IMG/VR virus record: IMGVR_UViG_3300018892_000001
Source: an uncultured virus (IMG/VR IMGVR_UViG_3300018892_000001)
Lineage: Duplodnaviria; Heunggongvirae; Uroviricota; Caudoviricetes
Length of the DNA: 64,000 bases
Reading direction: 5' to 3' (one strand)
The first letter of the stretch is position 1. Every line of letters begins with the position of its first letter. Positions 15,001 to 34,315 of the stretch are shown piece by piece. Below the pieces are notes generated by a model. That model made no database searches, was not told where the DNA came from, and saw only the letters and a list, made by a program, of their open reading frames with translations. Made by a program: the position numbers and the translations under genes.

Positions 15001-18000
15001 CACGGTTCTCCGTGATGTGGGAAATGCCATTGTTCGCCTACCTGGAACATTGACGGGGGCGGTGGAGCGGATGATACCCGCCCTCAAGGCTCCTTTCAAC
15101 TATCTACGAAGATTTATTGGGACTTTTATCAATGAGATGAAAGCCTTGCTCCCACCGGGAATAGCTGCATCGATAGTGCTGGGATTTGAACGTGCGGCTG
15201 GGTGGATCAAGGCAATCTTTAGCCGGATTAAATCAGGATTGCGCGGCTTTGTAACTCAGCTTGGCTTTGAAGAGCAGTTTAATGCTGTCACCCAAGGTAT
15301 CCGAACACGATGGCAGCAGTTAGTTGATTTTGCAACTAAGACCAATTTATTTGGTTCTATTCCAAAAGATATCAAGCAGTTTTCTGCTGCTTTTGTAAGG
15401 GGCGTAGACTTAGCTCAAGCCATTTGGACTCGATTTACAAATTGGCTGGCATCTACGACCTTATTCCCTAAGATTTGGACGCAACTTGAGACGTTGGGAA
15501 GTCGATTCACTCAATTTGCCGAGAAATTGGGCGAAAAATGGGAGGGGGTTAAAGGGGAATTTGCGACTGGGAATATGTTCGCTGGCTTCTTTGAGAGGAT
15601 GAGGCGTCTAGGGACTCGTTTTCAGGAATTCGTTATCAAGCTAGAAGAGAATTGGCGTGGATTTGCTCGAATTATTCCAGGTATCCCCATCTTCCAATCT
15701 CTATTCACCGAGCTTTATGTGTTTGGCGATCGCTTTAGTGGGCTTGCCAACTTCCTGGAGCAGCAATGGCGAAAGTTGGCGCAGTTTTTAGGTACAACGT
15801 CACTAGTTGGAGGTGCGATCTCGACCATTGAGTTTTTGGGGCGAAAGTTCACTGAGGTTATTGGGTTTGTCAAGGGAGCCTGGGAACCTTTCACCGAGTT
15901 TTTAAACAGCAGTGACTTCTTCTCAAAGGCATTCGAGCAGCTTCGCAAATTTGGGAATTTTATCCCTCAACTAGGTGAAACGACGAGGCAGGAATTCTCT
16001 AAAGCCAGGGAATTTATTGAAAATGTATTCCAGGATGTCCCTGGAGCAGTTAATCGCGCAGTTGAGCGCATTAGCAATGCTTGGCGAGGATTTACAGACC
16101 AATTCCAGTCTATTTTGTCCCCGATTGTTGATTTTGCAAAGAAAGTTGCTCAGTGGCTAATAGACGCATTGAACCATTCACCAACGGTCCGCATCCCAGA
16201 GGCGTGGGAAAAGGCAGTTGCTTGGATTCGAGGGACTATAGAATCTTTGGTTGCCCCAGCTCAAGGGGTAGCTGAAAAACTAACTGGAATATTCCAGTCT
16301 ACAACAAATCGTATCTCTGACTATTGGGCTGGATTTAGCCAAACGTTTGAGACTCACGTTGTCCCTGCCCTGAACGCACTAAAACCTCACCTAGACGAGT
16401 TGAGAGAGGGCTTCCAAGGATTTACAGAGCGACTACAGGCCGCGCTTTCTCCCTTAATAGAGAGATTTGGTCAAATCACATCTCAAGTTCAAGATTTTAT
16501 TCAAAGGATTCGAGCGGCAAGGGAACCTATAGACGCAACAGCAAATTCCGCTGTCAATTTAGGTGATTTGCTAGCACGGGGATTAGCCGGTGCCATATCG
16601 ACAATCGAGCGAATGTCCCCCGCTATTTCAGTTGTTCTTAAGATATTAGGAAACTTAACGATTGGCTTTTTGGAATTAAGCGATCGCATACTTGCTGGGC
16701 TTAGTCCGGCTCTATCCACCATTAAAGAGCTTGCCGATAAGGTATGGCGATTTGGCAACGCCTTTACAGAGGTATTTGGAGCTGCCGTTGCTCCGGCAGC
16801 CAAGGAACTACTTCCGGTTCTTAAGAAGCTACTAGCTATTTATGGGCGAGTGCTTGCGTTATCTGCTGCCCTTCCCTTTGGAATGATCGCTGGTGGCTTG
16901 GCTGGAGTCGTGGTTTCCATGAAGGCGCTACTGAATTTATTTGAGCCAATGAATCAACGCACGAAGGAACTCTTAACTTCCTTCAGTAGCGCACAAGATA
17001 TGGGGAAGGCATTTGGGGAGATTGTCGGCAATTCCATTTCGGGAGTAATTAATACCTTAAAAATTCTCCTGGAAGTGGCGGCTACGGTGGGTGATACCTT
17101 GACGGCACCACTAAAGTTCATTGATGCCGCATGGGAGAAAACGGGAAATGCGATCGGGGGAGTTTTAGGGCGATTAAAGCGACAAGCAAAGGGCGCTGGG
17201 AAAGGATTTCAGGGGGATCTCTCTGAGGCGTCTCCTGGTCCCACCTACTGGATACGCCAAAACTGGGCGAAGACAGGGGACTTTGTGAGCAATCAGATAA
17301 AAGAGATGGCATCGACAGCCAAGACCCAGGGGAATGGCATGAGGCAATCGCTAGAAAATGTCATGGGAGGGGGCGACGCATCTACAAATATATTTCGATT
17401 TGCCCAGCAAAATGGAAACAAGGCACAGCTCGTATCTATTTATGAACAAATGGAGGCAATGAGGCGAGCCGGCGCACTTGAGCAGCAAATCCGAGAAAAG
17501 CACCAAGCTGGCTTATTGTCTGACGCTAGGGCTGAAAAGCAAATAATGAAACAGAGGCAGCTAGGGCAAAAAGCACACCTAGCAATGATTAACACTGTTA
17601 GGGAGATCCAGACTTCGGCTAGGGAGAGAGAAGCTTCGGCTGCCGGAGCAACTCAGGAGCGAAATCAAAAGTTAGCCAACAGCTCAAGGGGGCTTTTCCT
17701 CAGTATGGGTTCTGCCCTATCTAACTTCGCTCCACAACTTGCAACACCTCTATTCATGCTCAACGACTTTGTAGATCTTTTCATAGATCTCAAAGATGTA
17801 CTTCCCCAAATCCGAGCATTGTTTGGAGCGACAGAAGCGGCAACAGCCGCTAATGCAGCGACAACGAGTGCTGCTAATGGAGTAATTGCAGCGTCAGAAG
17901 GAACCGTGACGGCGGCAGCCGCGAGTTCAGCAGCAGCCCAAGTCCAGGGCTCTGCGGCATCTAGTGGAGCAGCAATAGGGGAAGCTGCCGTTGTTGGGGG

Positions 18001-20680
18001 AGCTAATAGCTTTATGGCAACGACTTACGGACTCCTAGGGAGGGCAGCTCAATCGGCTTACGCCAACATGATTAAACCCCTGATTCCTCTACTTCCCTGG
18101 ATATTAGGTGTGTCTGCTGCACTATTCATTCTCTATCAAGGTTTCAAAAATAATTTCTTAGGCATAGGGGAGGCGATCAAAGGAGTTGGCGGCTTTATTA
18201 AAGAGTTTTTCGATTTACTGCTTGGTGGAGTATGGCAAACAATTGCCTCGATCTTTCTCAATATTGAGGTTCAAATCAGTGCTATCGGTCGCACACTTGG
18301 TCGGGTCGGTCATATTTTAATGGAACCGTTCCGCCCACTCTTGGCGGCATTTGGTGTTTCTGGACAACGCTCTCTGTTGGGGAATGCAATGGTCGTGACG
18401 GTCAATTTGATCCTCCTTCCTTTAAAACTAGTTGCAGGAGCAATTAATCTCATCATTAGCCTCCTCAGTGGCTTTATTCAAGGCGTAATTCTAGTTGGGG
18501 GAATCATCCTCAATTTCATCCTGCTCCCTATTCGGTTGATCAACGCCGCGATTTACGGCGTCATGATGGGCTTCAATTCTGTGATGCTCGGTGTCAACCA
18601 AGCGGTCAACTTATTACTTCTTGCCCCTCTAAATATCGCCACGGCTGTTGCCTACAAGATTGCCAACGTAATCGCAAAAATAGGGCGAGTAATTACTGCC
18701 TTCATTCTTTCTCCCTTCTTTGCCGTCCAAAATGCCATCATGAGGGCGATCAGCCCTGTGGTGGATTTTGTCTTTAAAGCAATTGGATTGATCGCAGGGG
18801 CAGCAGCTCTAATTTTCACCATCTTAAATCCAGGGATGGTAATTGGGACGTTCTTTGCCTTCGTCACTGGGGCAACATTAGCGGCAAAAGCAATTCGATT
18901 CACATTAGGGATTCCACTTAAAGCTATCGGTTTCCTGTGGCGAAACACGTTAGGAAAGATGGCTGCTGCGGCAGTGACAGATTCGACAGTGGTAGGTGGA
19001 GCCAATACGTTCATGGCGACAACGTATGGGTTATTGGCAAACGCTGCACGATGGGCATATAAACAAATCTTGATGCCATTAATGCCTTTGCTCCCACTAA
19101 TCCTAGCCGTCGTGGCAGTTCTCGGTCTTCTTTACTTGGGATTTAAGACCAATTTCTTGGGCATTGGTGATGTGATAAAGGGGTTTATAGGAGGGTTCTT
19201 ACTGGTATTTGATGTTGTTTGGGGCGTAATTAAAGGAATAGGGGATGCGATCTCCCAGGTATTTGGTAGCCTGATAACTTCGGTTGGAGAAATCTTTGGG
19301 GCATTAAAAGAACTAGCCGGGGCTATTCTTGCTCCCTTCGACGCTTTATTCGGACTGTTTGGAGGAAATGGTGCCGGGGGTGGGGGATCACTTGGAGAGG
19401 CAATCAGTGCTACTGTCGGTTTTATTCTAATTCCCACTAAGTTTGTTGCCGATGCCCTTTCGTTAGTGATTCGGGGGATAACATCCCTGATTGTGGGAGT
19501 TATTAGGCTAGGAACAGCAATCATCAATAGCATTTTCCGACCCATCACCAGTACGTTAGGATTCCTTTCTCCTGTAATGGGAGTAATTCGGACAATTATT
19601 GGGGCGATCGGAGGGGTGGCATTAGGGATTGCGGCTCTAATCGGCTTGATTGGTTTTCTCGCTACTACCCTGATTCCGTTAATAATGACCGGAACCGCTA
19701 TGCTATTTGGGATGATCGTATCGGGCATGACGTTCCTGATCTCTGCTGCCCTGCCTGCGTTAATCAGCGGCTTATTAACAGTTGCAACGGTTGTCATTCC
19801 CTTGCTGGTCAGCGCATTCTTGTTTGTCTCAACTGTAGCTATCCCAGGCATTATTAGTGGATTAACTGCGATCGCTACAACAGCTATCCCACTGGTAATG
19901 ACTGGCTTGTCTGCTGCCATTCCCTTTATCATCGCTGGGTTTGGCTTCATTGCGGCGACAGTTATTCCCGCCATAGTTGCTGGAGTAATGTTCATTGCAA
20001 CCGTCGCCATTCCCGCTATGATTGCAGGAATTGCCGGACTTGTAACTGCCGCCATTCCACTACTCATAACCTTTTCTCCAATAATCCTGATGGTTCTCGC
20101 AGTTGTCGCTGCGGTTGTCCTCGTTAAATTAGCTTTCGATGCTGTCGTTGGGGCAATACAGAAAGTCATTCAGGGAATAGCGAGTGCAATCAGCTCAGTT
20201 GGGCAATTTTTCCAAGCTCTGCCCTTGATCGGAGGATTATTTGGAGGACAAAAAAATAATGCGGGCGATGGTTCCAACATTCAGGAATTCGCCGGTGGAG
20301 GTTTAGTCCTAGGGCAATCCGCTCAAGCTGTCCCGGTGATTGCTCACGCGGGGGAATTTGTCATGACCGAATCGGCAACCCAGGCTAACCTAGGAATACT
20401 GCAATATCTTAACGCCGGAGGGAAATTAGCATTACCTGCCCCTAACGTTGGGGTAATGCCACCCATGCCCTTAAGGTTGCCGACTCCAGCCGCAGCCCCA
20501 GCGCAGGGGGCAGGAAGTGGGGCTGTGGTGATCGAAAATGTCAACATCAACTTCGAGGTACAAATTAATGCCAACAATGGAGTCGAGGCAGGGGATGAAT
20601 TCTTGAGATATATCGAAGATCCAAGGTTTAAAAAAGCAGTAAGACAAGTGTTAAGAGAATCAGTTGAAAGGATGAAGTAA
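1..20680 (+). CDS. Giant phage tail tape measure protein, 5'-truncated by the window (>=6892 aa)
   Basis: Frame is open from nt 2 (KSIQDAGEDIDSL...) to TAA at 20680. TP901-type core end (MENNLAGSFRSLESALEAV), long Ala/Gly/Ile amphipathic W/F-periodic stretches, repeated SPGPTxWIR / LNHxPT motifs, and C-terminal FAGGGLV...IAHAGEFVM motif typical of TMPs. Confidence 0.9.
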   Translation, partial: KSIQDAGEDIDSLGEVSQSKQIQALKGIFGTTGISGASAALGQIKELNRLAIATRASSTNTEQLTQYFTELRDIKMKPGQDLFAAIIEQTPSYTEAVRQIDEANLALMQVNLKTLNSLDSGRLTDYFQQVKGISTAPGQSLFAAVVENAPDTQNALNQVSTAMEQLGIQVKGQVGAARLMAQVMENNLAGSFRSLESALEAVQVNFIEPLTPLIRLAIDAATQFALFLANLPAPIRTTISVAAALTLGMGALAIAIGAAGVTLFGFQQAMAVTNLASSSLAAGLIPLTGFFDTAQKAIVATNPLETFFKRNTQLAGDFEKAAAGTFDETIAGMKLLGRQAIQTGKAFLVMSRSLMLSPIGLGIGGFLLLNTVLEQVVPGFNLLGTVLGAIAAPFGFIYGLLKGIIHSFLDLLGLTGSGAMGTIAPVFGTITNAIELAAKSFSLFAESGERIGERLGKAITLPFELAGQAIGSSWDRTISFIRGILRPFADFVQGIGQMLVGFLAEASPGPTFWIRKKWAMTVHFLQGLFERLKVGAIAVGQQLLNAFTTVLPQLSSAISIATVFAELSGIINPVQGLAIAIGNTIFGGIVESMGKSLDEVIPIFIRRFSLVAAFGGFLAQRLNFLQPLQAQIIAGLAIITGLSTFYLKTFSFDIASIWHTTVQIIQGDLQALAGVAKNVGLLLISFLAEASPGPTYWIRRKWAMTIEFLSSLFKKIRSAAVLVNQAFLGIGDVSSDQGIVARQQILEGVVLSLVSGVKLLGSVATGVDWAITQINQSVASAIDNLDLLGFTLLTLSSLPMTLIGQLAQGFEAVLPELALFVGVGLPRAIAYALPGAVAIAMSTGLIQGLEKGFATFVAGMTERSKVASQQLSQMFDANLKQAINRGLSEGVTTFVRNLPSVFPGMEDYQFTFDFDQAYADYESQREARVQAITSYLQEVGVVANQVGQQLQAALAPLLSFRIGDIFPALSFLPPLIPLVTAIVPAFQSLSQVVQSPAVQGIVNFLTGTVLPTALQTLRAIASTVGLVFNAFISLPLTAALIVITRPIVSAYRELLAFLPQIPGILGRAIVQLARTAATAVANLLARIPYIGETVSRAFLGTVEFLIAVTPVYFRLLRGLFERYFLKTIRPLLTRFQQLFGQVAQGIVYALERGFKPLGTLLFRALNPMSAFKLIGTYIRTKGFAGLFKPGLFMLNPFDLFFGGIPGISWAVRTAATAFYRIPFPAGIIDKKSRELFQIFAGSEAFLEAELKSRRLGRTMLVSIEDILKTQPAIGRFLIQILRGVLMINPLVQIIGRIALTTMFWYSALKPITPEMFEAIAATKMLGLSLSPVASILKGMRFVFVDMNEAFMRFARGIIPFMRGVQNFFNVLGTITGVVVHETAGITSILLNLFKATFGNLGLLVAIGFAGAIDATLIGFRAIAQLARLKTEQYGDALVALFQGNIGPLLGQIASDVMGVVGFIFEQTIVRVTKVALSLASTVGGAIRATFQEIVRFIRDPWNESIRLLNLLDAAVDRVLGNIARTINVYIQQLQLDRLARFLSHYWVQIAAIADVLLAVYGVLNPMQAAISGLIGLGLFLIQEYRTGFQNLDALIQGLAHPIELITNAIKAMVAALGIYIPPDLTNIIANVTEQFIKSLPIITGGVFLIALLIKRNIGEAFSTVTGGVMKIVGGLMQAVDATRVFGGAISDVAQSPKVQAKVGSQVHKVRRQESVLGVRNPFAYSQNEDQQRRAVALGDERVAKSRAALRYQDEINKSLQKIVKEEEEEIKRLARSRNARDQIMAFGGKLQRPDGFSYEVAPLLEKKKGLLGLNRLELSETGKAAVADQARRRITSPDSESAMGTRMQAARRSGLRAAFERHSGEPIPDDVLRKLAQQGDYGITNLMGAFQKAMENLHVKDFQVNKLYVAEFNRPQNFPTQTPIDSNAFDIQLNRFRSNPIHANKEIIKKAKTASEIQIEIDQATTTGDTSYANLIGKFKQRLEKMFEVPAGNSAIVSSNVIEEHAKTLSAKFNLSEEEYQKARKAVITDLLQRQAKSIGKTVTDFNDFEEANIEALKQANRRVEGFHPIATNTDVLAQAVRNIAGQTQAEVDQLNQTRRSFFSSLFGFTGVPQLIENFQYNRRLFRRSQQISRRVEEMARQESKDKASAQAARQRGLEALMSRSGSGYDFHTQSAQFYASKQINAQEQAFIESWVKNRSFKVDITQHQAFRPEVDKIIDRFKQLSTNLTLNTVDDVKKFRQTLNDVSTQIQTQLSKDEQTALKKLEQYLLHGASEAPKGGQLSFGERDSILAAINKSIANNKGAFGITGDHKDISKASFKKLYDQNEVAINRIISQFAATGEFVAKIGGKNEYIEGAYKEIERKLGLGGGGKGSSLRRIQDIKFSNTIRQLGINFGLFVQSIEENVAEFRERIYRGLDSFEGWLESHLRFPSLATGIVDLIRRPFEFLSNNIEAIYTAQKINIQNMANQIRADFVGSNVVSRINNLNQKYKEAREASLQTILQSSRDERIAKLGRKNAFQGAQLGPVWEELKKRQLSQAQSGQTVSALMRGGMSEQAVRSMLDRELRRQGLSRDQVTTEIDKVLASLGNQARYSVGDILKMRGIDATKVSKALESALSLEAKAVEQILKNPNYTARAVGPFQLFMVRDIVGILGDTFRGIGGTMVRLVRPVAKDVTAAFGSNVLTRIANVTREINKFLEIGASRLEVGIIKVVGRNPLSRAINRFASSLGGQTDLLARFFDKQAGIVADQAPKTFTVRIVNAVQSIYKAVSDNLTKAYNYVQAQKGILPAIARLMGGVRDFFKGLFRNKELEKVQQQISQQRRAFESNDPRKFKGEEQQARAASRRRRIAEQLPALEEKRRLLARNPVQKMADYVSSKKLPERGFNRIGQTFEGMSSRLSEFATVLRDKRVKAEEKRRGGVYDPDLYDRVSPRGQRRGASGLGQTMSPQNNDQMGGVRPREGMRYIGRGIVGATQDILPLTTKIFSDLLSAGAKTSDRLGQFFRGAALKVQGAWWQSATDIMGRSWRAMVTAAKGVGSFIIARLNHGSADVTAAAWDRTQHSVSQDMQQMAETAQATGQHISGSMEQSATRSVGFFSQLGNSIGRVGKAGMAIGGAVTGIGFGAQTAVYSLSTMGFVSEDTSEKLRKFFEIFTLFGAVGGIVTPLFAAVASSLGAIGAIAGTVGTAIVGVGGAIASVVGLGSVAFAPIILGIAAVGLAFAGLYLAIKSNFLGIGNILTTPIHWIEAAWQGFVDRFGARLMPIIQPALNVAQGLINALNHNPTLRIPEAWEAMKERIGAVFNWMSSTAGAIGNAIVGFFSPIGKLFSHGGVREQPVIQPRENSIQQLGHKVQESTSVVTERASGLGRAVNDLAAKTLVDILAKITLLVGGIVLFRQQVGKDIANLGAQVVSSRSMPSSLINAIGVSVLAKTFATSLGIAKIVRGVTSLGKISEDLLKPIQKLASNIGLKANTTGRRPQTALELTSGTLKGLGKLGDKLRPIAGYIPAIALAAPDVAMLGSGLIGLSYAFSEFPVFLLKFKSLLMLAGGFASAISGVVLLLELATKQTNVLGVLVGSLVFVVKAFAGVFKGFQKAFAEISNPLKAYYDDFIATVQRMGKAGDDFGQKLGYGLAQALIYPLNFIYQAWQGLVDWFARLPLVSHALNIGQGLVNALNHGAADVTADAWESTEQRVGGVFGSLASAASGIGNTIAGAFKPRPQKNKVLQPQSQVEENPESLGSGIIKNATVAIAFLRDKITALIKSIGLLNTKVDYQSQLLKHQLRLQQVNLVRSSWGILTNRERNSNLSGRASNLPWVQRRQAQVRGIGGLKEAAENPRLRRLKQLGGLVGELTGLKGGAIASLLTGITSISGALGLLVLAFSTDFLEIRTKTVKLAQSMQGAFKGAIDWITGAWTGFSNWFGKMPLVRQALAIAQGLINSLNHFPTVKIPEAWEEAGRRIVGQFHYWLNVAKWVGVAIAGTLITALTAIAAATNPVMAAITGFTLGISALAFFSSKILAGFGAVLDWFGNRILALDVKFASVNIGAIAGPLFGLSTIFATVTTAGTLLAAVLTAPVFAPWIAGATALGGAIAGALFLWQRFRKQSEIPPSVEQPTPTPGFRERVGQKAQGVRDAIVEQGVRAKNAGIGAANAVVEQATKVKDAGVGAANTVAQQYQLFASAAADVSSIRQSLQASSSLGDLNSSYLSKIVDLIQNLVDFNKPKPSPEPPPMVTGQSLIVGSGEVNNPNAIQNKVGGIGAAIQDTVLGQNAFGKLLLSPIARAPLDAMGLKDTQKRITKERERERIRQSLGQQKTGVQSSLPGPLGLFSKKDEFQEAIQSQLQGQELKLAEKVISGAQSSSALVRDQYKGLVTTITQNGQEQVVLNEKGQNYLEGQLAGLIKQQTGSFSEKELAVTAQKAGFKGTPEQLRQAALEGLRGKDKDQLSALEQAAGTLPGTKVDYQELASDSLSRLVEIAQNIFTCVDYIAALLQPKSKVPKSLASGASIPVDFQPTPPSPPAEPSLVSKAGDAINNTLSSLGVHAKTPLSTGAAGAESITEVLTRLRNSLSTTKEPVEYTSIQKRIGQLFAGKFEQPKGVQARLSDQVGKPQPTAQGIDADPSKALAFAAQNTTQAWNNTTTAIASNIDSLVSTSADQGYELQKAVSEGSPGPTYWIREHWSKTVEAIKGWMHGLGSTSQKVGEAVTQSLTPQEMVQKAKEGIQQVGKSLLILGGDIGDFIRRATVATLTLNFFELGDAVGDLGGNFGYFAQGVMTGFGQMGKSAIAFWLMAMSWATPFFVILGGVTFVTAVLVANFLGLRTILGGVIRIGIGAGQILIAVLGGLGNTVKSLGKIALGVFKALRGDFSLLDEGIAQLKASFTQMKAGVVRGLKTIGRGIRQIFTGIDQGIQQVFPSFKGVIHYVQAISSALKNPEAAARMLAQGIVRVARQIGDTIQTIPGFVARGVQKAFKWVKDGANAVLKKGQQVVAYFSGLSFSEVGDRFVTVLRDVGNAIVRLPGTLTGAVERMIPALKAPFNYLRRFIGTFINEMKALLPPGIAASIVLGFERAAGWIKAIFSRIKSGLRGFVTQLGFEEQFNAVTQGIRTRWQQLVDFATKTNLFGSIPKDIKQFSAAFVRGVDLAQAIWTRFTNWLASTTLFPKIWTQLETLGSRFTQFAEKLGEKWEGVKGEFATGNMFAGFFERMRRLGTRFQEFVIKLEENWRGFARIIPGIPIFQSLFTELYVFGDRFSGLANFLEQQWRKLAQFLGTTSLVGGAISTIEFLGRKFTEVIGFVKGAWEPFTEFLNSSDFFSKAFEQLRKFGNFIPQLGETTRQEFSKAREFIENVFQDVPGAVNRAVERISNAWRGFTDQFQSILSPIVDFAKKVAQWLIDALNHSPTVRIPEAWEKAVAWIRGTIESLVAPAQGVAEKLTGIFQSTTNRISDYWAGFSQTFETHVVPALNALKPHLDELREGFQGFTERLQAALSPLIERFGQITSQVQDFIQRIRAAREPIDATANSAVNLGDLLARGLAGAISTIERMSPAISVVLKILGNLTIGFLELSDRILAGLSPALSTIKELADKVWRFGNAFTEVFGAAVAPAAKELLPVLKKLLAIYGRVLALSAALPFGMIAGGLAGVVVSMKALLNLFEPMNQRTKELLTSFSSAQDMGKAFGEIVGNSISGVINTLKILLEVAATVGDTLTAPLKFIDAAWEKTGNAIGGVLGRLKRQAKGAGKGFQGDLSEASPGPTYWIRQNWAKTGDFVSNQIKEMASTAKTQGNGMRQSLENVMGGGDASTNIFRFAQQNGNKAQLVSIYEQMEAMRRAGALEQQIREKHQAGLLSDARAEKQIMKQRQLGQKAHLAMINTVREIQTSAREREASAAGATQERNQKLANSSRGLFLSMGSALSNFAPQLATPLFMLNDFVDLFIDLKDVLPQIRALFGATEAATAANAATTSAANGVIAASEGTVTAAAASSAAAQVQGSAASSGAAIGEAAVVGGANSFMATTYGLLGRAAQSAYANMIKPLIPLLPWILGVSAALFILYQGFKNNFLGIGEAIKGVGGFIKEFFDLLLGGVWQTIASIFLNIEVQISAIGRTLGRVGHILMEPFRPLLAAFGVSGQRSLLGNAMVVTVNLILLPLKLVAGAINLIISLLSGFIQGVILVGGIILNFILLPIRLINAAIYGVMMGFNSVMLGVNQAVNLLLLAPLNIATAVAYKIANVIAKIGRVITAFILSPFFAVQNAIMRAISPVVDFVFKAIGLIAGAAALIFTILNPGMVIGTFFAFVTGATLAAKAIRFTLGIPLKAIGFLWRNTLGKMAAAAVTDSTVVGGANTFMATTYGLLANAARWAYKQILMPLMPLLPLILAVVAVLGLLYLGFKTNFLGIGDVIKGFIGGFLLVFDVVWGVIKGIGDAISQVFGSLITSVGEIFGALKELAGAILAPFDALFGLFGGNGAGGGGSLGEAISATVGFILIPTKFVADALSLVIRGITSLIVGVIRLGTAIINSIFRPITSTLGFLSPVMGVIRTIIGAIGGVALGIAALIGLIGFLATTLIPLIMTGTAMLFGMIVSGMTFLISAALPALISGLLTVATVVIPLLVSAFLFVSTVAIPGIISGLTAIATTAIPLVMTGLSAAIPFIIAGFGFIAATVIPAIVAGVMFIATVAIPAMIAGIAGLVTAAIPLLITFSPIILMVLAVVAAVVLVKLAFDAVVGAIQKVIQGIASAISSVGQFFQALPLIGGLFGGQKNNAGDGSNIQEFAGGGLVLGQSAQAVPVIAHAGEFVMTESATQANLGILQYLNAGGKLALPAPNVGVMPPMPLRLPTPAAAPAQGAGSGAVVIENVNINFEVQINANNGVEAGDEFLRYIEDPRFKKAVRQVLRESVERMK

Positions 20681-20682
20681 TA

Positions 20683-21825
20683 ATGGACAACTATCGGTTA
20701 ACTCAGGCTCGGATACAATGCAATGCCATCCAAGTTCTATTGCTTGCAGAAACCAAGGAATATGATGCTGGTTGGCTACCCCAGGCTAAATCAGTACTAA
20801 GAGACGAAAGTGGAAGATTCGCTAGTAAAGAGGGTAGCTTCAAAGAAAAAGCAGAAGCTCTCTACAAAGAAGATGTTAAGCGCCATAATCGCGAATTTTC
20901 CAAGAAAGAATTTGCTAAATATCTAAACTCTGTTCCTGCACATTTAGAAGCAGCCAAAGATTATGTTTTTGGGACTAGTTACAAGCAGAAAGTTGACGAT
21001 TTAAGCAAGAAGTTAGGAGAGCTTGGGGTCGAACTGAAGAAAATCGCAACAAAGAAGTACAAAGAATTTGAACCCAAGTTAAAGGAGATGAAAGGGGAAG
21101 AGTTTGAACAGGCTGTTCAGGATGAATTAATTAAACTCAAACTTATAAACGAACGAACGTTCAAGGAAGACTTAAGGGAAGCTAAAACTGCCGAAGACAT
21201 CAAAAAAATAATAAACCAACATCAGGCAGAAATCATGAATGCTGCCATTATTGTTGGACGGGCAGTCGCGCTATCCGCTGGCGGATTAGCCGGATGGACT
21301 TTAGGAATTGTAGCTGGAGAAGTCCTGGTATCTGCAATATTTGGAGGGACAATACCAGCCTTTGCTACCATGTTCAATCAGGCGTTAATTGTTTGGGGAA
21401 TTGAGGAAACAGCCCAGCCTGTTGCTGCTTATTTAATTGACAAGAAAGTTACTGACAAAAAATTAAACAAAGAGTACAAAAAATGGGCAGAGTTTGGGGT
21501 TGATGTGCTTGCTATTGTGATGGGTCAAAACCTCGCACAGATCATAAAAGTAGCAGAAGAAAAAGCTACGTTCAAAAAGGGTATGCAAATAGCTCAAAAG
21601 GTTATGGAAGATAACGCCAAATTGATGGCAGAACACGAAAAAAGTATCCTAACGAAGGTAGGATTAGACAAACTGCCAAAAGACTTTGATACCTTAGAAA
21701 GTGCTTATAAATCAGCAATGAAAAAGGCGGCGGAACAGGGCAATTCCTTAGAGAAAGAGCTGTCAGAAATTAATAAGATCAAGCAAGCATACAACGACAT
21801 TCGTAGAAGGCTGTTGGAACAGTAA
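20683..21825 (+). CDS. Leader-family protein 1 (conserved N-terminal leader, coiled coil, hydrophobic segment); putative virion-associated/ejected protein
   Basis: Starts 2 nt after the TMP stop. Leader YRLTQARIQ..LLAETKEYDAGWL..AKSVLRDESGRFASK is shared with the next three ORFs; hydrophobic stretch at aa ~187-240. Confidence 0.75.
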   Translation: MDNYRLTQARIQCNAIQVLLLAETKEYDAGWLPQAKSVLRDESGRFASKEGSFKEKAEALYKEDVKRHNREFSKKEFAKYLNSVPAHLEAAKDYVFGTSYKQKVDDLSKKLGELGVELKKIATKKYKEFEPKLKEMKGEEFEQAVQDELIKLKLINERTFKEDLREAKTAEDIKKIINQHQAEIMNAAIIVGRAVALSAGGLAGWTLGIVAGEVLVSAIFGGTIPAFATMFNQALIVWGIEETAQPVAAYLIDKKVTDKKLNKEYKKWAEFGVDVLAIVMGQNLAQIIKVAEEKATFKKGMQIAQKVMEDNAKLMAEHEKSILTKVGLDKLPKDFDTLESAYKSAMKKAAEQGNSLEKELSEINKIKQAYNDIRRRLLEQ

Positions 21826-21826
21826 T

Positions 21827-22726
21827 ATGTCAAATCAATATGAATTAGCTCAAGCTCGAATTCAAACACTTCAGATTCTTGTGGTTGCCGAAGCCAAGGA
21901 ATACGATGCTGGTTGGCTAGACGGAGCAAAAACAATCTACCGAGAGGGAGGGCGTTTTGCTTCCAAGGGTTCTGGGGAAACCCAGGACAACCCTATTATT
22001 AGCAAAATCTCTGAGTCAATAAGGCAAAATGCCGAGAAACAATTTGCCTCTCTCACGCCAGAGAAGCAGAAAAAGGCAAAAGAGGAGCTTAAGACTATTA
22101 ATGATGGTTTTAATGAACTTGCCGATGGCATTGACAAGATGTCGCCAGAGGAGCAGGAGGAGTTACGGAAGTTCCTCGCTTCTCCGGATGTTAAACAGGT
22201 GCGAGAAGAAGTGGCGAAGTTGTTCGACTCAGTTGACAAAAAGGCGGGAAAAGCATTCCGGCAGGTAGACGCGAAGATTGATAAGGAACTCAAGGGACCT
22301 GGAACTCTTGGTAAGGCGATGAAGCGTATTCAGGCGATCGCCAATGATGTTATGGAAGGGGTGAAGGAGAATCCAGAGATTGTCGTAGGCGCCGCTATCA
22401 GTGCAGCGTGTCTTGTCGCTGGGGGAGCGGGAGCTGTTGCCCTTTTTAGCTTGCCGAATCTATTTTCCGTGGGGGGCGTATGGGGTGGACTAATAGCAAT
22501 AACTGAGGGAGCAACGGGAAGCGCGATCGCACAAGCGTTTGCGGCTGGTGGCTTGTCTCAGCTTGGATTTTCTGCCTCCGCTTATCTTGTTTCTTCTGGG
22601 CTTAGTAATCTTGTTCTGGATGCGACGATGCTCCTTAATAAGGATATTCGCGAGGAAATAAATCAGATAAAGGTTGAAAATGAACGCATAGCGAAAGAAA
22701 GTTTAGCAAAGCAATTTTCATTTTAA
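21827..22726 (+). CDS. Leader-family protein 2; long Gly/Ala hydrophobic C-terminal region
   Basis: Leader YELAQARIQ..VAEAKEYDAGWLDGAKTIYREGGRFASK; hydrophobic aa ~185-270; 1-nt gap to the previous gene. Confidence 0.75.
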   Translation: MSNQYELAQARIQTLQILVVAEAKEYDAGWLDGAKTIYREGGRFASKGSGETQDNPIISKISESIRQNAEKQFASLTPEKQKKAKEELKTINDGFNELADGIDKMSPEEQEELRKFLASPDVKQVREEVAKLFDSVDKKAGKAFRQVDAKIDKELKGPGTLGKAMKRIQAIANDVMEGVKENPEIVVGAAISAACLVAGGAGAVALFSLPNLFSVGGVWGGLIAITEGATGSAIAQAFAAGGLSQLGFSASAYLVSSGLSNLVLDATMLLNKDIREEINQIKVENERIAKESLAKQFSF

Positions 22727-22750
22727 ATCACGGAGAACCGTGACATAGAA

Positions 22751-24172
22751 ATGCTCAATCCATATGCGATCGCCGAAGCCCAATCTACATCCATTCTCTT
22801 AGAGTCTGCACTTAAGGAGTATGCAGCCGATTGGCTCAAGAACACTGAGAGCGTGATGCGGGATGAAACCGGGAAGTTTGCCAAGAAGGCGGCTTCCGTG
22901 GGTCAAAGTGCGTCCCAGGCTAAAGAATCTATTGAAGAGGCAGTTAAGAACCCCCAGGAAGCGAAGCGGAAGGTAAACAGTGAGTTACTTAAACTCACGG
23001 CAAGGGGTTTGGATAAACTTGTTCAGAAGTACCCAGAATTTACTGACCAACTCCTAGACAAGATGCTTGGGCTTGACGCTCAAGAGGCACGGGACAGGTT
23101 GGCAGATGAGTACGGACGCATTAACCCAGGATTGCCCAACGCCATCAGACCAGACCCATTGCCCGTACCCCTGAAGGAGACCCTAGCAGACATCCTCAAG
23201 AAGATAGCAGCAGACAAGGGAAACCCCAAGGAGTTGGCTAAAGACCTCCAAAAAGCATTTGAGCTATTGGGGGAAAACTACAACGATTTAATTGACGACC
23301 TCAACAATGTGGAGAGTGAGTCAGAGGCGGTTAAGCTCCTAGGGAAGATTGCGGCTACTTCTATTCCTATTACTGCCTATCTTGCTATCGCCCTTACTCC
23401 TGAAGTTGCAATCGGACTTCTACTTGGGGATAGTTTATCAACCATCCTTGTATCGACAGTAGCTAGCGAGGCTGTTAGTTTTGCTGCCAACAAGGGAATG
23501 GACAAGATGGATGTGAACAACCCTTGGGTGAGAATAGGGGTTGAATTGGCAATCGGGATTGGGGTTGGAGGGGCTGTTAGTACTGGGGCAAAACAGCTAG
23601 AAAATGCCAAAACAGCAGAAAAAATTGGCGCATTTGCGGACAAGAAGGTTAAGTTACTTCGTCGCAAAGCCGAAGCGACATTTAAAAAGGTCAAATCCGG
23701 CGGCAAATCTTCTATGGAGATTCCAGATTTCCCTCCTATTCTTAAGCAGAAACCAAAAGGAATTCCTGATGACATCGAGTTTGACCAAACACCTTATGGC
23801 ACAGGCTTGAGATTTGAGATAGAGGGCAATAAAGTATTACTAGGTCTTGGTGATGATGGGGTAGTAGGCTTCAAGATCAATGACAAGTTTGACATGGATG
23901 AATCTCTCGCCGACAACGTAAAAAGACGGGCGGCTGTTAAGTTAACTAAGTTATTTAAGTCATCTGTTGCAGAGATGGAAGAAGGGAAGATTCTGTGGTG
24001 CAATATCCATGACAAAGATGGAGTAAAAGCAGCAGATCGTAGATTTAAAGCTTATAAGCTTATGGGTTTTGGAGACAAAGTTGAAAACTCTGTATACGGT
24101 ATAATTAAGGAAGGTAAACTTGTACCTTACAAACCTTCTGCGGAGGATTTAAACAAACTACATGGTGACTAA
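22751..24172 (+). CDS. Leader-family protein 3; C-terminal domain with GNAT-like motif
   Basis: Leader KEYAADWLKNTESVMRDETGKFAKK. First ~190 aa closely match the 24390 ORF. C-terminal LWCNIHDKDG...RRFKAYKLMGF resembles the GNAT Y-x-x-x-GF motif (weak). Confidence 0.7.
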   Translation: MLNPYAIAEAQSTSILLESALKEYAADWLKNTESVMRDETGKFAKKAASVGQSASQAKESIEEAVKNPQEAKRKVNSELLKLTARGLDKLVQKYPEFTDQLLDKMLGLDAQEARDRLADEYGRINPGLPNAIRPDPLPVPLKETLADILKKIAADKGNPKELAKDLQKAFELLGENYNDLIDDLNNVESESEAVKLLGKIAATSIPITAYLAIALTPEVAIGLLLGDSLSTILVSTVASEAVSFAANKGMDKMDVNNPWVRIGVELAIGIGVGGAVSTGAKQLENAKTAEKIGAFADKKVKLLRRKAEATFKKVKSGGKSSMEIPDFPPILKQKPKGIPDDIEFDQTPYGTGLRFEIEGNKVLLGLGDDGVVGFKINDKFDMDESLADNVKRRAAVKLTKLFKSSVAEMEEGKILWCNIHDKDGVKAADRRFKAYKLMGFGDKVENSVYGIIKEGKLVPYKPSAEDLNKLHGD

Positions 24173-24341
24173 AACAGATGCCTATTCTTTATCAGGAGAA
24201 GAGGAGGACTACTGGCTTGAAGCTGTAGTCAACAAGTCAGAAGAGGAAGTAGAATCATTAATCAACGCTCTCCCTCCTGACAAGCAGAAAGCGGTTAACG
24301 CACTAATAGCCGAAACATTTTTTCCTAAAACAAAAGATTAA
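24162..24341 (+). CDS. Small acidic protein (59 aa), candidate immunity/partner protein; not in the ORF track
   Basis: MVTKTDAYSLSGEEEDYWLEAVVNKSEEEVESLINALPPDKQKAVNALIAETFFPKTKD*. Overlaps the 22751 stop by 11 nt, GGAGGA lies upstream, and it ends at a hairpin. Confidence 0.6.
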   Translation: MVTKTDAYSLSGEEEDYWLEAVVNKSEEEVESLINALPPDKQKAVNALIAETFFPKTKD

Positions 24342-24404
24342 AATCTCCGCTTCAACAGCGATAATGCTAGTTGAAGCGGAGATTTTTTTATGCTTAATTT
24401 TTAT
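24341..24404 (+). repeat. Hairpin + ATGCTTAATTTTTAT cassette, copy 1
   Basis: AAATCTCCGCTTCAAC-AGCGATAATGCTA-GTTGAAGCGGAGATTT followed by the start codon of the 24390 ORF; homologous to 27627-27689. Confidence 0.85.
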
Positions 24405-26378
24405 ACATTTGCTCAAGCTCAATGTGTCTCAATACTTTTAGAGGCAGCACTTAAGGAATACACGGCGGATTGGCTCAAGAATGCCGAAAGTGTTGTGCGG
24501 GACGAAACGGGTCGATTTGCTAAGAAAGCAGCTTCCGTCGGTCAGAACGTCTCTCAGGTCAAGGAATCTATTGAAGAGGCGATCAAGAACCCCCAGGAAG
24601 CCAAACGGAAGATTAGTAGCAAATTGCTTAAACTTATGGCAAAGGGGTTGGATAAATTAGTCCAAAAATACCCAGAATTTACTGAAAAGCTCCTAGACAA
24701 AATGTTTGGCTTGGATGCTCAAAAAGCACGAGACAGGCTAGCAGATGAGTACGGACGGATTAACCCAGGACTTCCCAATGCCATCAGACCTGACCCCCTG
24801 CCCGAACCTCTAAAGGAGACTCTGGCAGACATTCTCAAGCAAATGAAGGCACACAAGGGAGATCCCAAAGCACTAGCCAAAGACCTTCAAAGGGCATTTG
24901 AGCTTGCTGGGGAAAACTACAACGAATTAATAGATCAACTCAATAACAACCTGAGCAACAACGATCGCGTACAAGACTTCATTAAAACACTGGGAAAAAT
25001 AGCCTCTGCATCTATTCCCCTTTCCACCTTCCTCGCATTCACACTAGGACCAGAAATCGCGCTCGGACTACTGATGGAAGAAGGATTGGCTACGATCATA
25101 ACGAACACTGGTGTTGGCGTAACGTGGAATTTTGTTGCGGATAAAGCATTGGAAGCGGCAGATATCGAAGATCCGTGGGTGCAAGGGGGAGTTCATTTAG
25201 CTGTTTCTGTAGGTGCGACCACAGGGATGATGGACTGGCGAGGATTCTATCGTGCAGGGGTTCCAAAGTCAGCCAAGTTAGCCAAGGAGGCGGCAAAACA
25301 GGTTGATGTTCCGTCCGATCTGCTGGGGGCAGAAGCCGTTACCTTTGTTACTGGAGGTATTGGGGACGTAACAGGAGATACGGCAACTACGATTGCGTCC
25401 GGACTGGAACAACTAAAAAAAGATCCCAAGATACTTGGGTTTAAGTCCCAATACTTCGTTCCAAATACTAAGAGGGAGTTTGTAACTCAGAACCCTGGAG
25501 CAATCCCAAATCTAGCCACATTTACTAAAACCCTTGTTCAGAAAGGACGTAATCCTGATGCTGTCTCACTTGCAGCTCAAATAGCGGCTTGGCGTCAGAA
25601 ACATCCCCTCATTCCAATCACTTCAACTGGATATTCGGGTGGAGGGCTAATTAATCGAGAATGTGACGCAATCTTAAAAGAGATGGGCATAAATGACGTT
25701 AAGTTCGTTAATGTAGGAACCCCGGATCTGGGAATGTTCCCAACTAACAAAGCAATTCATATTAGTAGTCCTAACGATGAACTCAATGTCTTTAGTCCTA
25801 AAAATGCTCAACTTGTTCCTTCTGTTAAGAGCCATAAAAGCTATTACGAAGACCCTGAATTCTTTTTGACCCTTGATCGAGCTTTACTAGATAAATCAAG
25901 CCATGACTTGCTTAAACGAACAGAGGTATTATCTGGGTCAGAAGAGTACCACGCATTTAGGAAAGCAATAAAATCCGATCAAGTTAATTTTGATCGGATT
26001 CTTGCCAAAGGAGAAGAATTGTCAGAGGATGTCTCTAATAAATTCATATCTACGATGGGGGAATTTATAGATAAATTCAACCTTCCACTTGCTCAATTAG
26101 AAAAAGATATTACAACCAGTACAACTTCTAAAATTAACAAGGATTACCTAAGCCGAGGAGTAGGCGATCGCTTCAATGATCTAGAAAATGCTGCATCTAG
26201 ACTTGTGGATATCCTAGAAGCCAACCTTAGTCTTCAGCCTCAAGAAGCTGGGGTTGTTTCCTCTAAAGTGCAAGCAATTGTCAGCCAACTCAATGAAATC
26301 GCCCAAAATATCAAAAAGATTGATGGAAATCCCCAGATTATCGAACAAATTGAAGGAATATTAGAAGATATTGTTTAA
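24390..26378 (+). CDS. Leader-family protein 4; C-terminal alpha/beta-hydrolase (lipase/esterase-like) domain
   Basis: Leader KEYTADWLKNAESVVRDETGRFAKK. FVTGGIG, nucleophile elbow TGYSGGG, VGTP, downstream Asp (PNDEL) and His (KSHKSYY). Confidence 0.7.
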   Translation: MLNFYTFAQAQCVSILLEAALKEYTADWLKNAESVVRDETGRFAKKAASVGQNVSQVKESIEEAIKNPQEAKRKISSKLLKLMAKGLDKLVQKYPEFTEKLLDKMFGLDAQKARDRLADEYGRINPGLPNAIRPDPLPEPLKETLADILKQMKAHKGDPKALAKDLQRAFELAGENYNELIDQLNNNLSNNDRVQDFIKTLGKIASASIPLSTFLAFTLGPEIALGLLMEEGLATIITNTGVGVTWNFVADKALEAADIEDPWVQGGVHLAVSVGATTGMMDWRGFYRAGVPKSAKLAKEAAKQVDVPSDLLGAEAVTFVTGGIGDVTGDTATTIASGLEQLKKDPKILGFKSQYFVPNTKREFVTQNPGAIPNLATFTKTLVQKGRNPDAVSLAAQIAAWRQKHPLIPITSTGYSGGGLINRECDAILKEMGINDVKFVNVGTPDLGMFPTNKAIHISSPNDELNVFSPKNAQLVPSVKSHKSYYEDPEFFLTLDRALLDKSSHDLLKRTEVLSGSEEYHAFRKAIKSDQVNFDRILAKGEELSEDVSNKFISTMGEFIDKFNLPLAQLEKDITTSTTSKINKDYLSRGVGDRFNDLENAASRLVDILEANLSLQPQEAGVVSSKVQAIVSQLNEIAQNIKKIDGNPQIIEQIEGILEDIV

Positions 26379-26455: not shown

Positions 26456-27031
26456 ATGTTTAACTACATCAAAAATCTCCTCAACACTACTTCCGAAAAC
26501 GTTGTTGTCGTTCGCGACTTAAGTGTTGCAGCGGTAAAAGAGGTAGCTCCCGCTACATCCACATTCCTGGAAATCCAGAGTGGCAACAGCGCGAACTTCA
26601 ACTCTGACACGCTGCTACAAATGACATTGCAAGAGGTCGGTAGCAGCATCAAGAAAACGTCCGAGGAGGCGTGGTACGCCATTGTGGCGGACACACGAAA
26701 GGTTGACCGCCAGATTACCAAGTTACTCGAAATGAATAACCTTGGCGGTCAGGAAATGAAAATGTTCCTCTACTTTGGCGGTGGCGCGATCGCGACCTAC
26801 CACTTGTCCTTATGGGCAGCGTGGGTAATCGCGATCTTGTCCCTGCTAGGTTTCCTGGCAGGGCTGATCTTGTCATCCCTAGTGCAACTAGGCGGACAAG
26901 TAGCCGCATACCTCCTAATTGGAGGCTTGTTTGCGGTTAGTCTCAACGCAATAATTGACGATATCATCCAGTTTGTTTCTTGGATCAGTGATTCCAATGA
27001 AACTAAAGATCATGAGTTGATCGTCGCATAA
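26456..27031 (+). CDS. Membrane protein (moron-like), hypothetical
   Basis: Has its own promoter and terminator; 2-3 hydrophobic segments in the C-terminal half. Confidence 0.75.
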   Translation: MFNYIKNLLNTTSENVVVVRDLSVAAVKEVAPATSTFLEIQSGNSANFNSDTLLQMTLQEVGSSIKKTSEEAWYAIVADTRKVDRQITKLLEMNNLGGQEMKMFLYFGGGAIATYHLSLWAAWVIAILSLLGFLAGLILSSLVQLGGQVAAYLLIGGLFAVSLNAIIDDIIQFVSWISDSNETKDHELIVA

Positions 27032-27247: not shown

Positions 27248-27628
27248 ATGAATATCAAGCAGTCGCTGGTTCGTGCCAGCTTTTTTCTTGGCGTAATGAG
27301 CGCAATTGCACTCCGTATCGGAGTGTGGCTTTTACGACGAAGGACAGATGCAACGATTGCAATCATCCAAACAAAGACCATCTGTGCCCTCTTGCTGGGC
27401 GGGATAGCCCTCTACTGGCATCTCGACACCCTTGGGGTGCGGGTGCAGTCGTGGTTCGATGTTACTTGGCTCCGCCTTCAGTGGTGGAACCAAATAGAGA
27501 ACCTCCAATACGAAATTGGATGGAAGTCATTCCTAAGTTACTGGGACGGCTTCTCTACCGGAGCCGGATGGGGACTACTTCTCGGCGCAGGACTAATGTT
27601 TGTCCTGATGCGCCGCCAAAACACCTAA
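27248..27628 (+). CDS. Small membrane protein (moron-like), hypothetical
   Basis: Three hydrophobic segments; upstream TTGACT (27191) with TGTTATAACA box at 27201. Confidence 0.7.
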   Translation: MNIKQSLVRASFFLGVMSAIALRIGVWLLRRRTDATIAIIQTKTICALLLGGIALYWHLDTLGVRVQSWFDVTWLRLQWWNQIENLQYEIGWKSFLSYWDGFSTGAGWGLLLGAGLMFVLMRRQNT

Positions 27629-33809: not shown

Positions 33810-33875
33810 GTTTAGCTCAGGTTTAGATCATGTTTAGGCTGTATCTAGCCTAAGTTTAGGCTAGATACAGCCTAA
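33810..33875. repeat. Array of six phased 11-bp repeats containing a perfect 20-bp inverted repeat
   Basis: gtttagctcag gtttagatcat gtttaggctgt atctagcctaa gtttaggctag atacagcctaa. Confidence 0.85.
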
Positions 33876-34315
33876 GCCACAGCAGTGGCAAACGCGATCG
33901 CCATTCGTTTGCAATCTTCGAGTGTCGCTGCCTTAAAACCAATAGGGAGGTCGAGTTCCGTTTGCTGTCGAAAAGACTGATTTTCGTCTGCTTCGGTCAA
34001 AGCCATGCAATCACCTTCAGCAACAACAGCGCCAATACCGAATCCACAGTATGCCCTGTGACTCCAACCATACCACTTCTGCTCTTTCTCACAGAAGCCT
34101 ATCGAGCAGACTGTTTTACCAGGAAGACATTCAGGTTTAATTCCCAAGGTATAGAGAAAGATAGCCGTATTGATGTCGCCAATATATTCCCCTGACTGGG
34201 CATATACTGAATTCAAAATCACTGGTTCATTACCTTCGACGGTAGTCAACTCTTTCCTAAGTTCAAACCCTCTTCGGTCTTTAAAAACATGAAGCGTTTC
34301 TTTTTGTATTAGCAT
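33872..34315 (-). CDS. Conserved phage hypothetical protein
   Basis: CSIGFCEKEQKWYGWSHRAYCGFGIG motif, recalled from uncharacterised phage proteins. Confidence 0.7.
   Translation of the reverse strand: MLIQKETLHVFKDRRGFELRKELTTVEGNEPVILNSVYAQSGEYIGDINTAIFLYTLGIKPECLPGKTVCSIGFCEKEQKWYGWSHRAYCGFGIGAVVAEGDCMALTEADENQSFRQQTELDLPIGFKAATLEDCKRMAIAFATAVA

What the first reader, a model, noticed from the sequence alone, without database searches (positions are those of the whole stretch)
20683..26378. Tandem array of polymorphic proteins with a shared N-terminal leader, directly behind the tape measure gene: candidate phage-delivered effector system
Seen: four consecutive genes start with the same ~50-aa leader (Y-x-[LIF]-[AT]-[QE]A...L..[AT/AL]KEY-x-A-x-WL...R(DE)xG[RK]FA[SK]K). 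Each has a charged helical region, then a hydrophobic segment, then an unrelated C-terminus. Proteins 3 and 4 share ~190 aa nearly identically and then diverge: one ends in a GxSxG hydrolase-like domain, the other in a GNAT-like domain followed by a small overlapping acidic ORF. Known: constant N-terminus / variable toxic C-terminus / small downstream immunity gene is the polymorphic-toxin layout, and PVC-type injection systems load cargo via short N-terminal signals. Inference: the leader is a virion or tail-lumen loading signal, and these are membrane-inserting effectors injected with the genome.
Basis: partly seen in the sequence, partly recalled or inferred. Interest (0 to 1): 0.88.

Follow-up and report, generated by a model that had tools for sequence, protein, structure and literature searches.

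The report
Cyanophage capsid-cargo proteins with swappable enzymes

Summary
Four genes share a ~50-aa leader; a profile search finds 104 leader proteins (61-1185 aa), with no curated family for the leader. The contexts I could read are large cyanobacterial myophages, including the complete phage-plasmid pC052_F of cultured Nostoc sp. C052. The p3/p4 type is truly polymorphic: a constant leader, helical body and hydrophobic hairpin carry swapped tips (GNAT-like, alpha/beta hydrolase, ADP-ribosyltransferase, zincin-like, kinase, TPR). Small ORFs follow 10 of 12 genes ending in four enzyme-type tips versus 1 of 42 others. p1 and p2 are conserved, non-enzymatic paralogues. New here: the leader's first helix ends in a hydrophobic-x-Ala site that also marks the major capsid protein N-terminus and the scaffold parts of a T4 gp21/assemblin-fold prohead protease. 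This points to head packaging and propeptide removal, not PVC-like tail-lumen loading; tape-measure linkage is only one of many gene slots. Packaging, cleavage, toxicity and immunity are unmeasured. It works like T4 capsid-targeted internal proteins crossed with MuF toxins, but is a member of neither family. The scan noted capsid-tag-like leaders before in other phages, with different sequences; none matched this DNA.

The parts
38..20680 (+). Giant tape measure protein, open at the window's 5' edge (context, not part of the array)
   Evidence: PHROG 1272 E 1e-29; record G001 continues the frame 1,177 nt further upstream
20683..21825 (+). p1, 380 aa: leader, charged helical body, hydrophobic segment 201-227, C-terminal J-domain-like hairpin without HPD
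   Evidence: full-length homologues P0026, P0004; P0004 has Pfam DnaJ with HPD at the aligned place
20683..20832 (+). p1 leader: helix ending VLLLAET, then KEYxAxWL...RDxxGRFASK
21827..22726 (+). p2, 299 aa: leader, helical body, Gly/Ala-rich hydrophobic region 183-213; no enzyme domain found
   Evidence: homologues P0005, P0034, P0098, P0072; leader-only remnant of this type behind the tape measure of pC052_F
21827..21973 (+). p2 leader (RxGGRF variant)
22751..24172 (+). p3, 473 aa: leader, constant body with hydrophobic hairpin (about 200-275), GNAT-like tip
22751..22891 (+). p3 leader (site ILLESA, a weak match to the cleavage profile)
23738..24160 (+). p3 tip, residues 330-470: GNAT-like fold, conserved D..D[GD]..R..Y..[MF]GF
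   Evidence: pLDDT mostly 80-96; 1y9k Z 7.3, rmsd 2.5, 98 aligned, many GNAT rows; five other relatives plus P0109
24162..24341 (+). p3b, 59-aa acidic ORF overlapping the p3 stop; candidate inhibitor/immunity protein
   Evidence: only a 98%-identical relative; family-wide small-ORF pattern
24390..26378 (+). p4, 662 aa: leader, constant body, alpha/beta-hydrolase domain, 165-aa orphan tail
24390..24530 (+). p4 leader (site ILLEAA)
25290..25874 (+). p4 hydrolase-like domain with Ser416 (GYSGG), Asp463, His482; Ser is Cys in most aligned relatives
   Evidence: alignments; positions; sub-threshold Thioesterase hits in homologues P0002, P0037, DUF676 serine esterase hit in L049 homologue

Best explanation
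These are internal head (ejection) proteins of a family of large, at least partly temperate cyanobacterial myophages. Inferred steps: (1) made late, each joins the assembling prohead through its N-terminal leader; (2) the phage's gp21/assemblin-fold prohead protease cuts after the hydrophobic-x-Ala site about 20-30 residues in, as it would the capsid protein N-terminus and its own scaffold, leaving KEYxAxWL...RDxxGRF at the mature start; (3) at infection they leave the head with the DNA and the hydrophobic hairpin anchors them in, or helps them cross, a host membrane; (4) the exchangeable tip (GNAT-like in p3, hydrolase in p4; ADP-ribosyltransferase, zincin-like, kinase, TPR elsewhere) acts on host targets, and a small downstream protein inhibits tips that would harm the producing or lysogenic cell. 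p1 and p2 are conserved non-enzymatic members. Shown here by sequence: family, modularity, shared site, protease fold, small-ORF pattern. Not shown: packaging, cleavage, ejection, membrane insertion, activity, immunity.
For: Leader at the N-terminus of 104 of 107 profile hits. The site pattern occurs 10 times versus 1.3 expected in one protease-scaffold, always outside the protease domain; 158 copies outside versus 8 inside the domain over 23 homologues. It sits at residue 19-25 of 4 of 4 distinct capsid proteins examined, two of them checked after the pattern was fixed. A profile trained only on scaffold and capsid sites picks offsets -9 to -5 before KEY as the best of 66 positions in 70 of 97 leaders. 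The protease model matches T4 gp21 (Z 11.2, rmsd 2.8, 127 aligned) and herpesvirus proteases, and a herpesvirus protease's sites are given as YLQA-T and VQA-S (PMC4498786). Arrays of five and eight genes follow the capsid gene in L006/L011 and L026, and one copy lies between portal and protease in L039. 60 of 73 pairs with at least 80% identical first 280 residues have unrelated last 150 residues. Two tip modules match C-terminal parts of PHROG head-protein families. Small ORF after 10 of 12 versus 1 of 42 genes.
Against: No proteomics or activity data. The site pattern was first chosen by eye from these sequences; it is short, and 3 of 5 pC052_F proteins that carry it at residues 8-33 are probably chance. 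Only 47 of 99 leaders match the strict pattern; p3's own site is not among its top three scores and p2's is second. The window lacks its own capsid and protease genes; P0131, taken as a stand-in from contig size alone, has only 4 sites (p=0.057). Only 10 of 97 representatives have a Pfam domain above cut-off. The one full-length copy in pC052_F has no enzyme tip. Hydrolase tips have no small ORF (0 of 4). The body model is low-confidence. Many loci come from closely related phages, so counts are not independent.
Confidence: 0.55

Rival explanations
1. Head-packaged and protease-processed, but structural: the constant helical body and hairpin form an inner core or DNA-ejection conduit, and the enzyme tips are optional passengers rather than toxins.
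For: p1, p2 and the full-length pC052_F copy have no enzyme tip; most tips are helical or unassigned; 76 of 98 representatives have a hydrophobic 19-mer of at least 1.6; an essential SPN3US head protein with a propeptide and a transmembrane segment is described in PMC5694885.
Against: Copy number ranges from 2 genes in the complete pC052_F to at least 7 in one partial record; tips turn over while the body stays 80-98% identical; small ORFs track enzyme-type tips.
Confidence: 0.2
2. Tail-associated cargo (lumen, tip or baseplate), loaded by the leader as in PVC injection systems.
For: Directly behind the tape measure in the window and in pC052_F; after the tube gene on 7 and after the head-tail adaptor on 8 of 56 contigs; the phages have sheath and tube.
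Against: The leader's site is shared with capsid and protease-scaffold; it is absent from tube, gpI-like and one portal protein and under-represented in the tape measure (11 versus 18 expected), though one sheath has 4 (1.35 expected). These are complete phages with portal, capsid and terminase, and a 7,000-8,000-aa tape measure would occupy the lumen (inference).
Confidence: 0.1
3. Not virion proteins: membrane proteins or toxin-antitoxin-like morons working in the infected or lysogenic cell, the leader being a host export signal or a recombination cassette.
For: Hydrophobic hairpin; Ala-x-Ala-like ends recall signal peptidase sites (recalled); leader DNA is exchanged between bodies (P0004 has a p3/p4-type leader on a p1-type body; a matching loose end in run X8); some copies lie away from recognised structural genes (L017, L069, L074).
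Against: Only 11 of 99 leaders have an uncharged run of 8 or more residues (median 6) and 25 of 99 a net positive start; most placeable copies sit in the morphogenesis module; the site is shared with head proteins.
Confidence: 0.1

Closest known systems
Phage T4 capsid-targeting sequence on internal proteins and Alt; SPN3US/phiKZ ejection proteins with propeptides (PMC5694885, PMC10052503; passages read)
   Same: Shared N-terminal propeptide on several paralogues, ending in a site also found in the capsid protein; protease of gp21 fold; an ADP-ribosyltransferase among the cargo.
   Different: Inferred P1 is Ala, not Glu (SPN3US cleaves after A-X-E); a second conserved 25-aa element stays on the predicted mature protein; cargo has a constant body with a hydrophobic hairpin and swappable tips with small partner genes; cyanobacterial host.
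MuF polymorphic toxins of temperate phages (PMC5576092; abstract and section 5 read)
   Same: Constant N-terminus, variable C-terminal enzyme (metallopeptidase, ADP-ribosyltransferase), small downstream ORF mainly after enzyme tips, proposed phage delivery.
   Different: No MuF domain; 2 to 8 paralogues in many slots instead of one gene beside the portal; propeptide-like leader and hydrophobic hairpin.
Polyvalent proteins of phages (PMC5512222; passages read)
   Same: Draws on ADP-ribosyltransferase, zincin-like, GNAT and kinase domains proposed to act early in infection.
   Different: Usually one tip per protein on a constant carrier, spread over paralogues.
PVC/eCIS effectors with N-terminal signal peptides (PMC11495950, PMC9054023; search listing and abstract starts only)
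   Same: N-terminal tag on diverse payloads of a contractile machine.
   Different: Here a complete phage with head, terminase and giant tape measure; the tag matches head-protein sites.

Membership tests
T4/SPN3US-type capsid-targeted internal proteins | Shared N-terminal propeptide on several proteins of one phage | tested here: met
T4/SPN3US-type capsid-targeted internal proteins | Propeptide ends in a site shared with capsid protein and scaffold | tested here: met
   By sequence only; weak for p3 itself; tested in relatives because the window lacks the head genes
T4/SPN3US-type capsid-targeted internal proteins | Prohead protease of gp21/assemblin fold between portal and capsid genes | tested here: met
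   (relatives)
T4/SPN3US-type capsid-targeted internal proteins | Cleavage after Glu (A-X-E type) | tested here: not met
   The invariant residue of the enriched site is Ala, followed by A/S/E/G; actual bond not measured
T4/SPN3US-type capsid-targeted internal proteins | Present in heads, processed, ejected | not testable with these tools
   needs virion proteomics
MuF polymorphic toxins | MuF domain | tested here: not met
   No MuF Pfam or PHROG hit in p1-p4 or 97 representatives; MuF3/MuF4 custom profiles not available
MuF polymorphic toxins | Single gene next to the portal | tested here: not met
   Multiple copies; portal upstream on 1 of 56 contigs
MuF polymorphic toxins | Variable C-terminal enzyme domains on a constant N-terminus | tested here: met
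   (p3/p4 class only)
MuF polymorphic toxins | Small ORF after toxin genes | tested here: met
   10 of 12 versus 1 of 42; 10 of 19 versus 1 of 35 if hydrolase and internal ILNRG tips count as enzymes; related phages, not independent
MuF polymorphic toxins | Toxicity neutralised by the small ORF | not testable with these tools
   bench test needed
PVC/eCIS cargo | Headless tail cluster without capsid or terminase | tested here: not met
   Terminase in window; portal, capsid, protease, terminase in relatives
PVC/eCIS cargo | Pvc15-like AAA loader | not tested
   not searched
GNAT acetyltransferase (p3 tip) | GNAT fold | tested here: inconclusive
   Z 7.3, rmsd 2.5, 98 aligned, many GNAT rows but Z below 8; no Pfam hit
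alpha/beta hydrolase (p4 tip) | Nucleophile elbow plus Asp and His | tested here: met
   Alignment only; fold not modelled; no significant hydrolase hit among solved structures

The most novel reading that the evidence does not exclude
A new class of polymorphic toxins delivered from the phage head: cyanobacterial phage-plasmids with giant tape measures load up to eight or more paralogues through a protease-cleaved leader, inject them as membrane-anchored carriers with interchangeable enzyme warheads, and protect lysogens with cognate mini-immunity genes, so the virion serves as a customisable effector syringe for host takeover or competition between cyanobacteria.
Probability: 0.4. Interest if true: 0.85.

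Novelty: new variant of a known kind. Interest (0 to 1): 0.68.

Why it matters
Which proteins phages carry in their heads and inject is mostly unknown outside T4, T7, P1 and phiKZ-like phages. This family gives a sequence tag that predicts the injected set, a predicted cleavage rule, a catalogue of candidate effectors with partner genes, and a cultured host (Nostoc sp. C052, pC052_F) in which packaging and processing can be tested. If right, it joins two ideas studied apart (capsid-targeting propeptides and phage polymorphic toxins) and offers a leader for loading proteins into cyanophage heads.

Tried and rejected
No family above cut-off for p1-p4, p3b or the leader in Pfam, PHROGs (one weak coiled-coil-type tape-measure hit for p4) or NCBIfam. 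No match in 50,697 GenBank phages for the p3 N-region or the capsid protein. ESM Atlas on the p3 tip: best score 0.79, uninformative. Foldseek against viral models: only weak GNAT-like rows. Solved-structure sequence searches for the hydrolase and protease alignments gave nothing usable. p3b versus the 55-aa ORF after the GNAT-tipped gene in L049: not significant (E 0.7), so homology of the two is not claimed. Complex prediction for the p3 tip with p3b was not available, so binding is open. No RNA holder listed. Contigs of four runs showed no joints; uncovered parts prove nothing. L002 rejected as a relative: it shares only RDETGKFAKK, in an ORF downstream of a portal gene. P0013, P0054 and P0090 dropped as internal-repeat hits. 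The Acetobacteraceae label on 8 of 9 genome stretches is read as probable mis-binning, since gene order equals the viral contigs; not proven. Signal-peptide reading disfavoured (no dedicated predictor was run). Literature searches listed no paper describing this leader; subscription papers and the supplementary files of PMC5512222 were not seen and could hold a profile for the RDxxGRF element.
Full report
Observation. The window is part of a large phage: tape measure (38-20680), terminase large and small subunits, ribonucleotide reductase. Four leader-bearing ORFs and one 59-aa acidic ORF follow the tape measure as described. The core pattern matches 3 times in the window and never in 100 shuffles. 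p3 and p4 are 80% identical over the first 190 residues and 40% over 190-275. None of the five proteins reaches a curated cut-off in Pfam or NCBIfam.

The family. A profile of the four leaders against 1.84 billion representatives gave 107 hits. I dropped three internal-repeat hits; the other 104 carry the leader at the N-terminus and are 61-1185 aa long. The leader has two halves: a 20-30-residue Leu/Ile/Gln-rich helix, then KEYxAxWL-x7-RDxxG[RK]F[AS][SK]K. In the p3 model residues 22-37 form two short strands at pLDDT about 63. The halves are separable: a 775-aa paralogue has the helix and body but no second half, and six genes in L026 put other second halves behind a similar helix. Leaders also move between bodies: P0004 has a p3/p4-type leader on a p1-type body, and a contig end in run X8 runs from a p4-like leader into that body.

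Polymorphism. After removing the leader, p3's body matches 45 of the 104 representatives, mostly up to residue 260-300 only. I scanned 97 of the 104 against Pfam (p4's own cluster and six short ones left out). Ten have a domain above cut-off: ADP-ribosyltransferase (3), TPR (2), Lipase_3 (2), GNAT, kinase and DnaJ; most have none. Among 16 genes picked by genomic slot, 60 of 73 pairs with at least 80% identity over the first 280 residues have unrelated last 150 residues (pairs are not independent). p1 and p2 instead have near full-length homologues and form their own classes. p1 ends in a hairpin that aligns with the J-domain of P0004 but lacks HPD. The p3 tip folds confidently and resembles GNATs at Z 7.3, rmsd 2.5, 98 aligned, which is suggestive only. 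The p4 domain keeps Ser416, Asp463 and His482, with Cys for Ser in most aligned relatives.

Small downstream genes. Among distinct complete genes (11 dropped as too close to a contig end), a 50-120-aa ORF follows 10 of 12 that end in a zincin-like (HExxH), ADP-ribosyltransferase-like, ILNRG-type or GNAT-like tip, and 1 of 42 others. The grouping was made after seeing the data; counting hydrolase and internal ILNRG tips as enzymes gives 10 of 19 versus 1 of 35. Tip classes here rest on motifs that I chose. The small ORFs differ by tip type. This is the pattern reported for MuF toxins, 89.4% versus 25.5% (PMC5576092, section 5 read). For p3b itself there is no distant relative and the likeness to the L049 ORF is not significant.

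Context. A DNA pattern found the leader on 4 viral contigs, 9 genome stretches and 59 metagenome stretches. Neighbours include portal, capsid, adaptor, sheath, tube and gpI-like genes. On 56 contigs the nearest named upstream gene was the adaptor for 8, the tube for 7, the capsid gene or its follower for 7, the tape measure for 3 and the portal for 1; 19 had a copy that could not be placed, and the rest lay by unannotated conserved genes (a contig can count in several slots, and many are close relatives). Two of the three tape-measure cases are divergent from its 5' end. The longest arrays follow the capsid gene: five genes in L006/L011 and eight in L026. No GenBank phage matches, but one plasmid does: pC052_F of Nostoc sp. 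C052, circular, 223,442 bp, with ParA/ParB, terminase 53% identical to the window's, and an 8,170-aa tape measure followed by a 64-aa leader-only ORF and a 405-aa p3/p4-type protein without an enzyme tip. So tape-measure linkage is conserved in this one other phage but is not general. A cyanobacterial host is supported by that record, by the best plasmid hits of two window genes and by source names of protease homologues. Near-identical DNA occurs in biocrust and soil DNA runs from 11 studies, two of which may include the source.

The cleavage site. The gene between portal and capsid encodes a 520-620-aa protein whose central domain has an invariant His and Gly-Met-Ser and whose model matches T4 gp21 (Z 11.2, rmsd 2.8, 127 aligned) and herpesvirus proteases. 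I noticed by eye that [ILVF]-[EQA]-A-[AESG] recurs in it: 10 copies versus 1.3 expected, two of them bracketing the protease domain. Over 23 homologues there are 158 copies in 9,206 residues outside the domain and 8 in 3,477 inside (several are over 90% identical). The same site lies at residue 19-25 of four distinct capsid proteins; those of G002 and pC052_F were checked after the pattern was fixed. In leaders it occurs within 12 residues before KEY in 47 of 99, against a shuffle mean of 4.8 (maximum 13 of 1,000) and 0 of 99 in a downstream control window. A weight matrix trained only on 10 scaffold and 3 capsid sites scores offsets -9 to -5 best among 66 positions in 70 of 97 leaders. Herpesvirus protease sites given as YLQA-T and VQA-S (PMC4498786, passages) have the same form, whereas SPN3US cleaves after A-X-E (PMC10052503, passages). 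Against: p3's site scores poorly, p2's is second best, the 64-aa pC052_F remnant lacks it, the pattern is short (3 probable chance hits among 5 of 226 pC052_F proteins), and the window's own head genes were not available; P0131 is assigned to a very close genome only because its contig is 245,762 nt against 245,281 for p3.

Mechanism. A prohead protease acts inside the prohead (T4 account in PMC5694885, passages), so a conserved site of its type at the end of a shared N-terminal helix argues that these proteins are in the prohead. That is the main reason to prefer head packaging to tail loading. Two tip modules also match the C-terminal parts of PHROG minor-head and head-protease families. A hydrophobic 19-mer of at least 1.6 is present in 76 of 98 representatives of 200 aa or more, suggesting membrane anchoring after ejection; the body model is too weak to say more. 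I put head location at about 0.75, and head-delivered effectors with inhibitors at 0.55.

Comparison and novelty. It works like T4 capsid-targeted internal proteins and like MuF toxins, but fails membership features of both (no Glu site, no MuF domain, many copies). It is not a PVC-type system. My searches listed no description of this leader; subscription papers and supplements were not seen. Earlier scan notes report capsid-tag-like leaders with other sequences in other phages, and nothing on this sequence. I rate it a new variant of a known kind: the tag principle is known, while this family, its Ala-type site, the membrane carrier with swappable tips and partner genes, and the cultured test host appear undescribed.

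Noticed in passing
window 38-20680; G001; NZ_CP040278.1 20766-45278: Giant tape measure: at least about 7,280 aa here (frame continues in G001) and 8,170 aa in pC052_F, in phages with sheath and tube. By the recalled rule of about 0.15 nm per residue this would be a contractile tail of about 1 micrometre.
   Followed up: partly
NZ_CP040278.1 (L098-L103): A record filed as a Nostoc plasmid is a complete phage-plasmid: portal, protease, capsid, sheath, tube, terminase, ParA/ParB, sigma factor, NrdJ, isolated Cas5d and Csx3 genes.
   Followed up: partly
window 33872-34315 (-): Strong Pfam match to the Thoeris inhibitor Tad6 (E 1e-42).
   Followed up: no
window 51813-53591 (-): Rolling-circle Rep_1 gene 58-64% identical to small cyanobacterial plasmids, next to a YoeB-like toxin: possibly an integrated plasmid.
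   Followed up: partly
window 61201-64000: Ribonucleotide reductase gene interrupted by a LAGLIDADG endonuclease ORF.
   Followed up: no
window 26456-27031, 27248-27628, 27724-29496: Two hydrophobic ORFs (191 and 126 aa) follow the array; the 590-aa ORF after them is 48% identical to a pC052_F protein and has no family hit.
   Followed up: partly
L026 2628-9914: Six genes behind the capsid gene carry the leader helix with three other second halves (FxESKVKR.AFGMF, RHPVG...GGQY, KRGxDGRL), followed by two standard leader genes.
   Followed up: partly
L001 373-4451: Two zincin-like (HExxH) tipped genes have their leader and body in different reading frames; frameshift or assembly error not resolved.
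   Followed up: no
L002 6189-6869; P0013: The RDxxGKF element also occurs in an unrelated ORF downstream of a portal gene, and the leader profile matches it eight times in a 3,149-aa protein with a minor-head PHROG hit, hinting at a wider head-related motif.
   Followed up: partly
L017 5445-6026: A lone 194-aa leader protein in a cyanobacterial MAG contig, not beside recognised virion genes.
   Followed up: no
window 48685-49479 (-), 39562-41076 (-): RNA ligase-like gene, and a glycoside hydrolase 19 protein conserved in the related phages.
   Followed up: no
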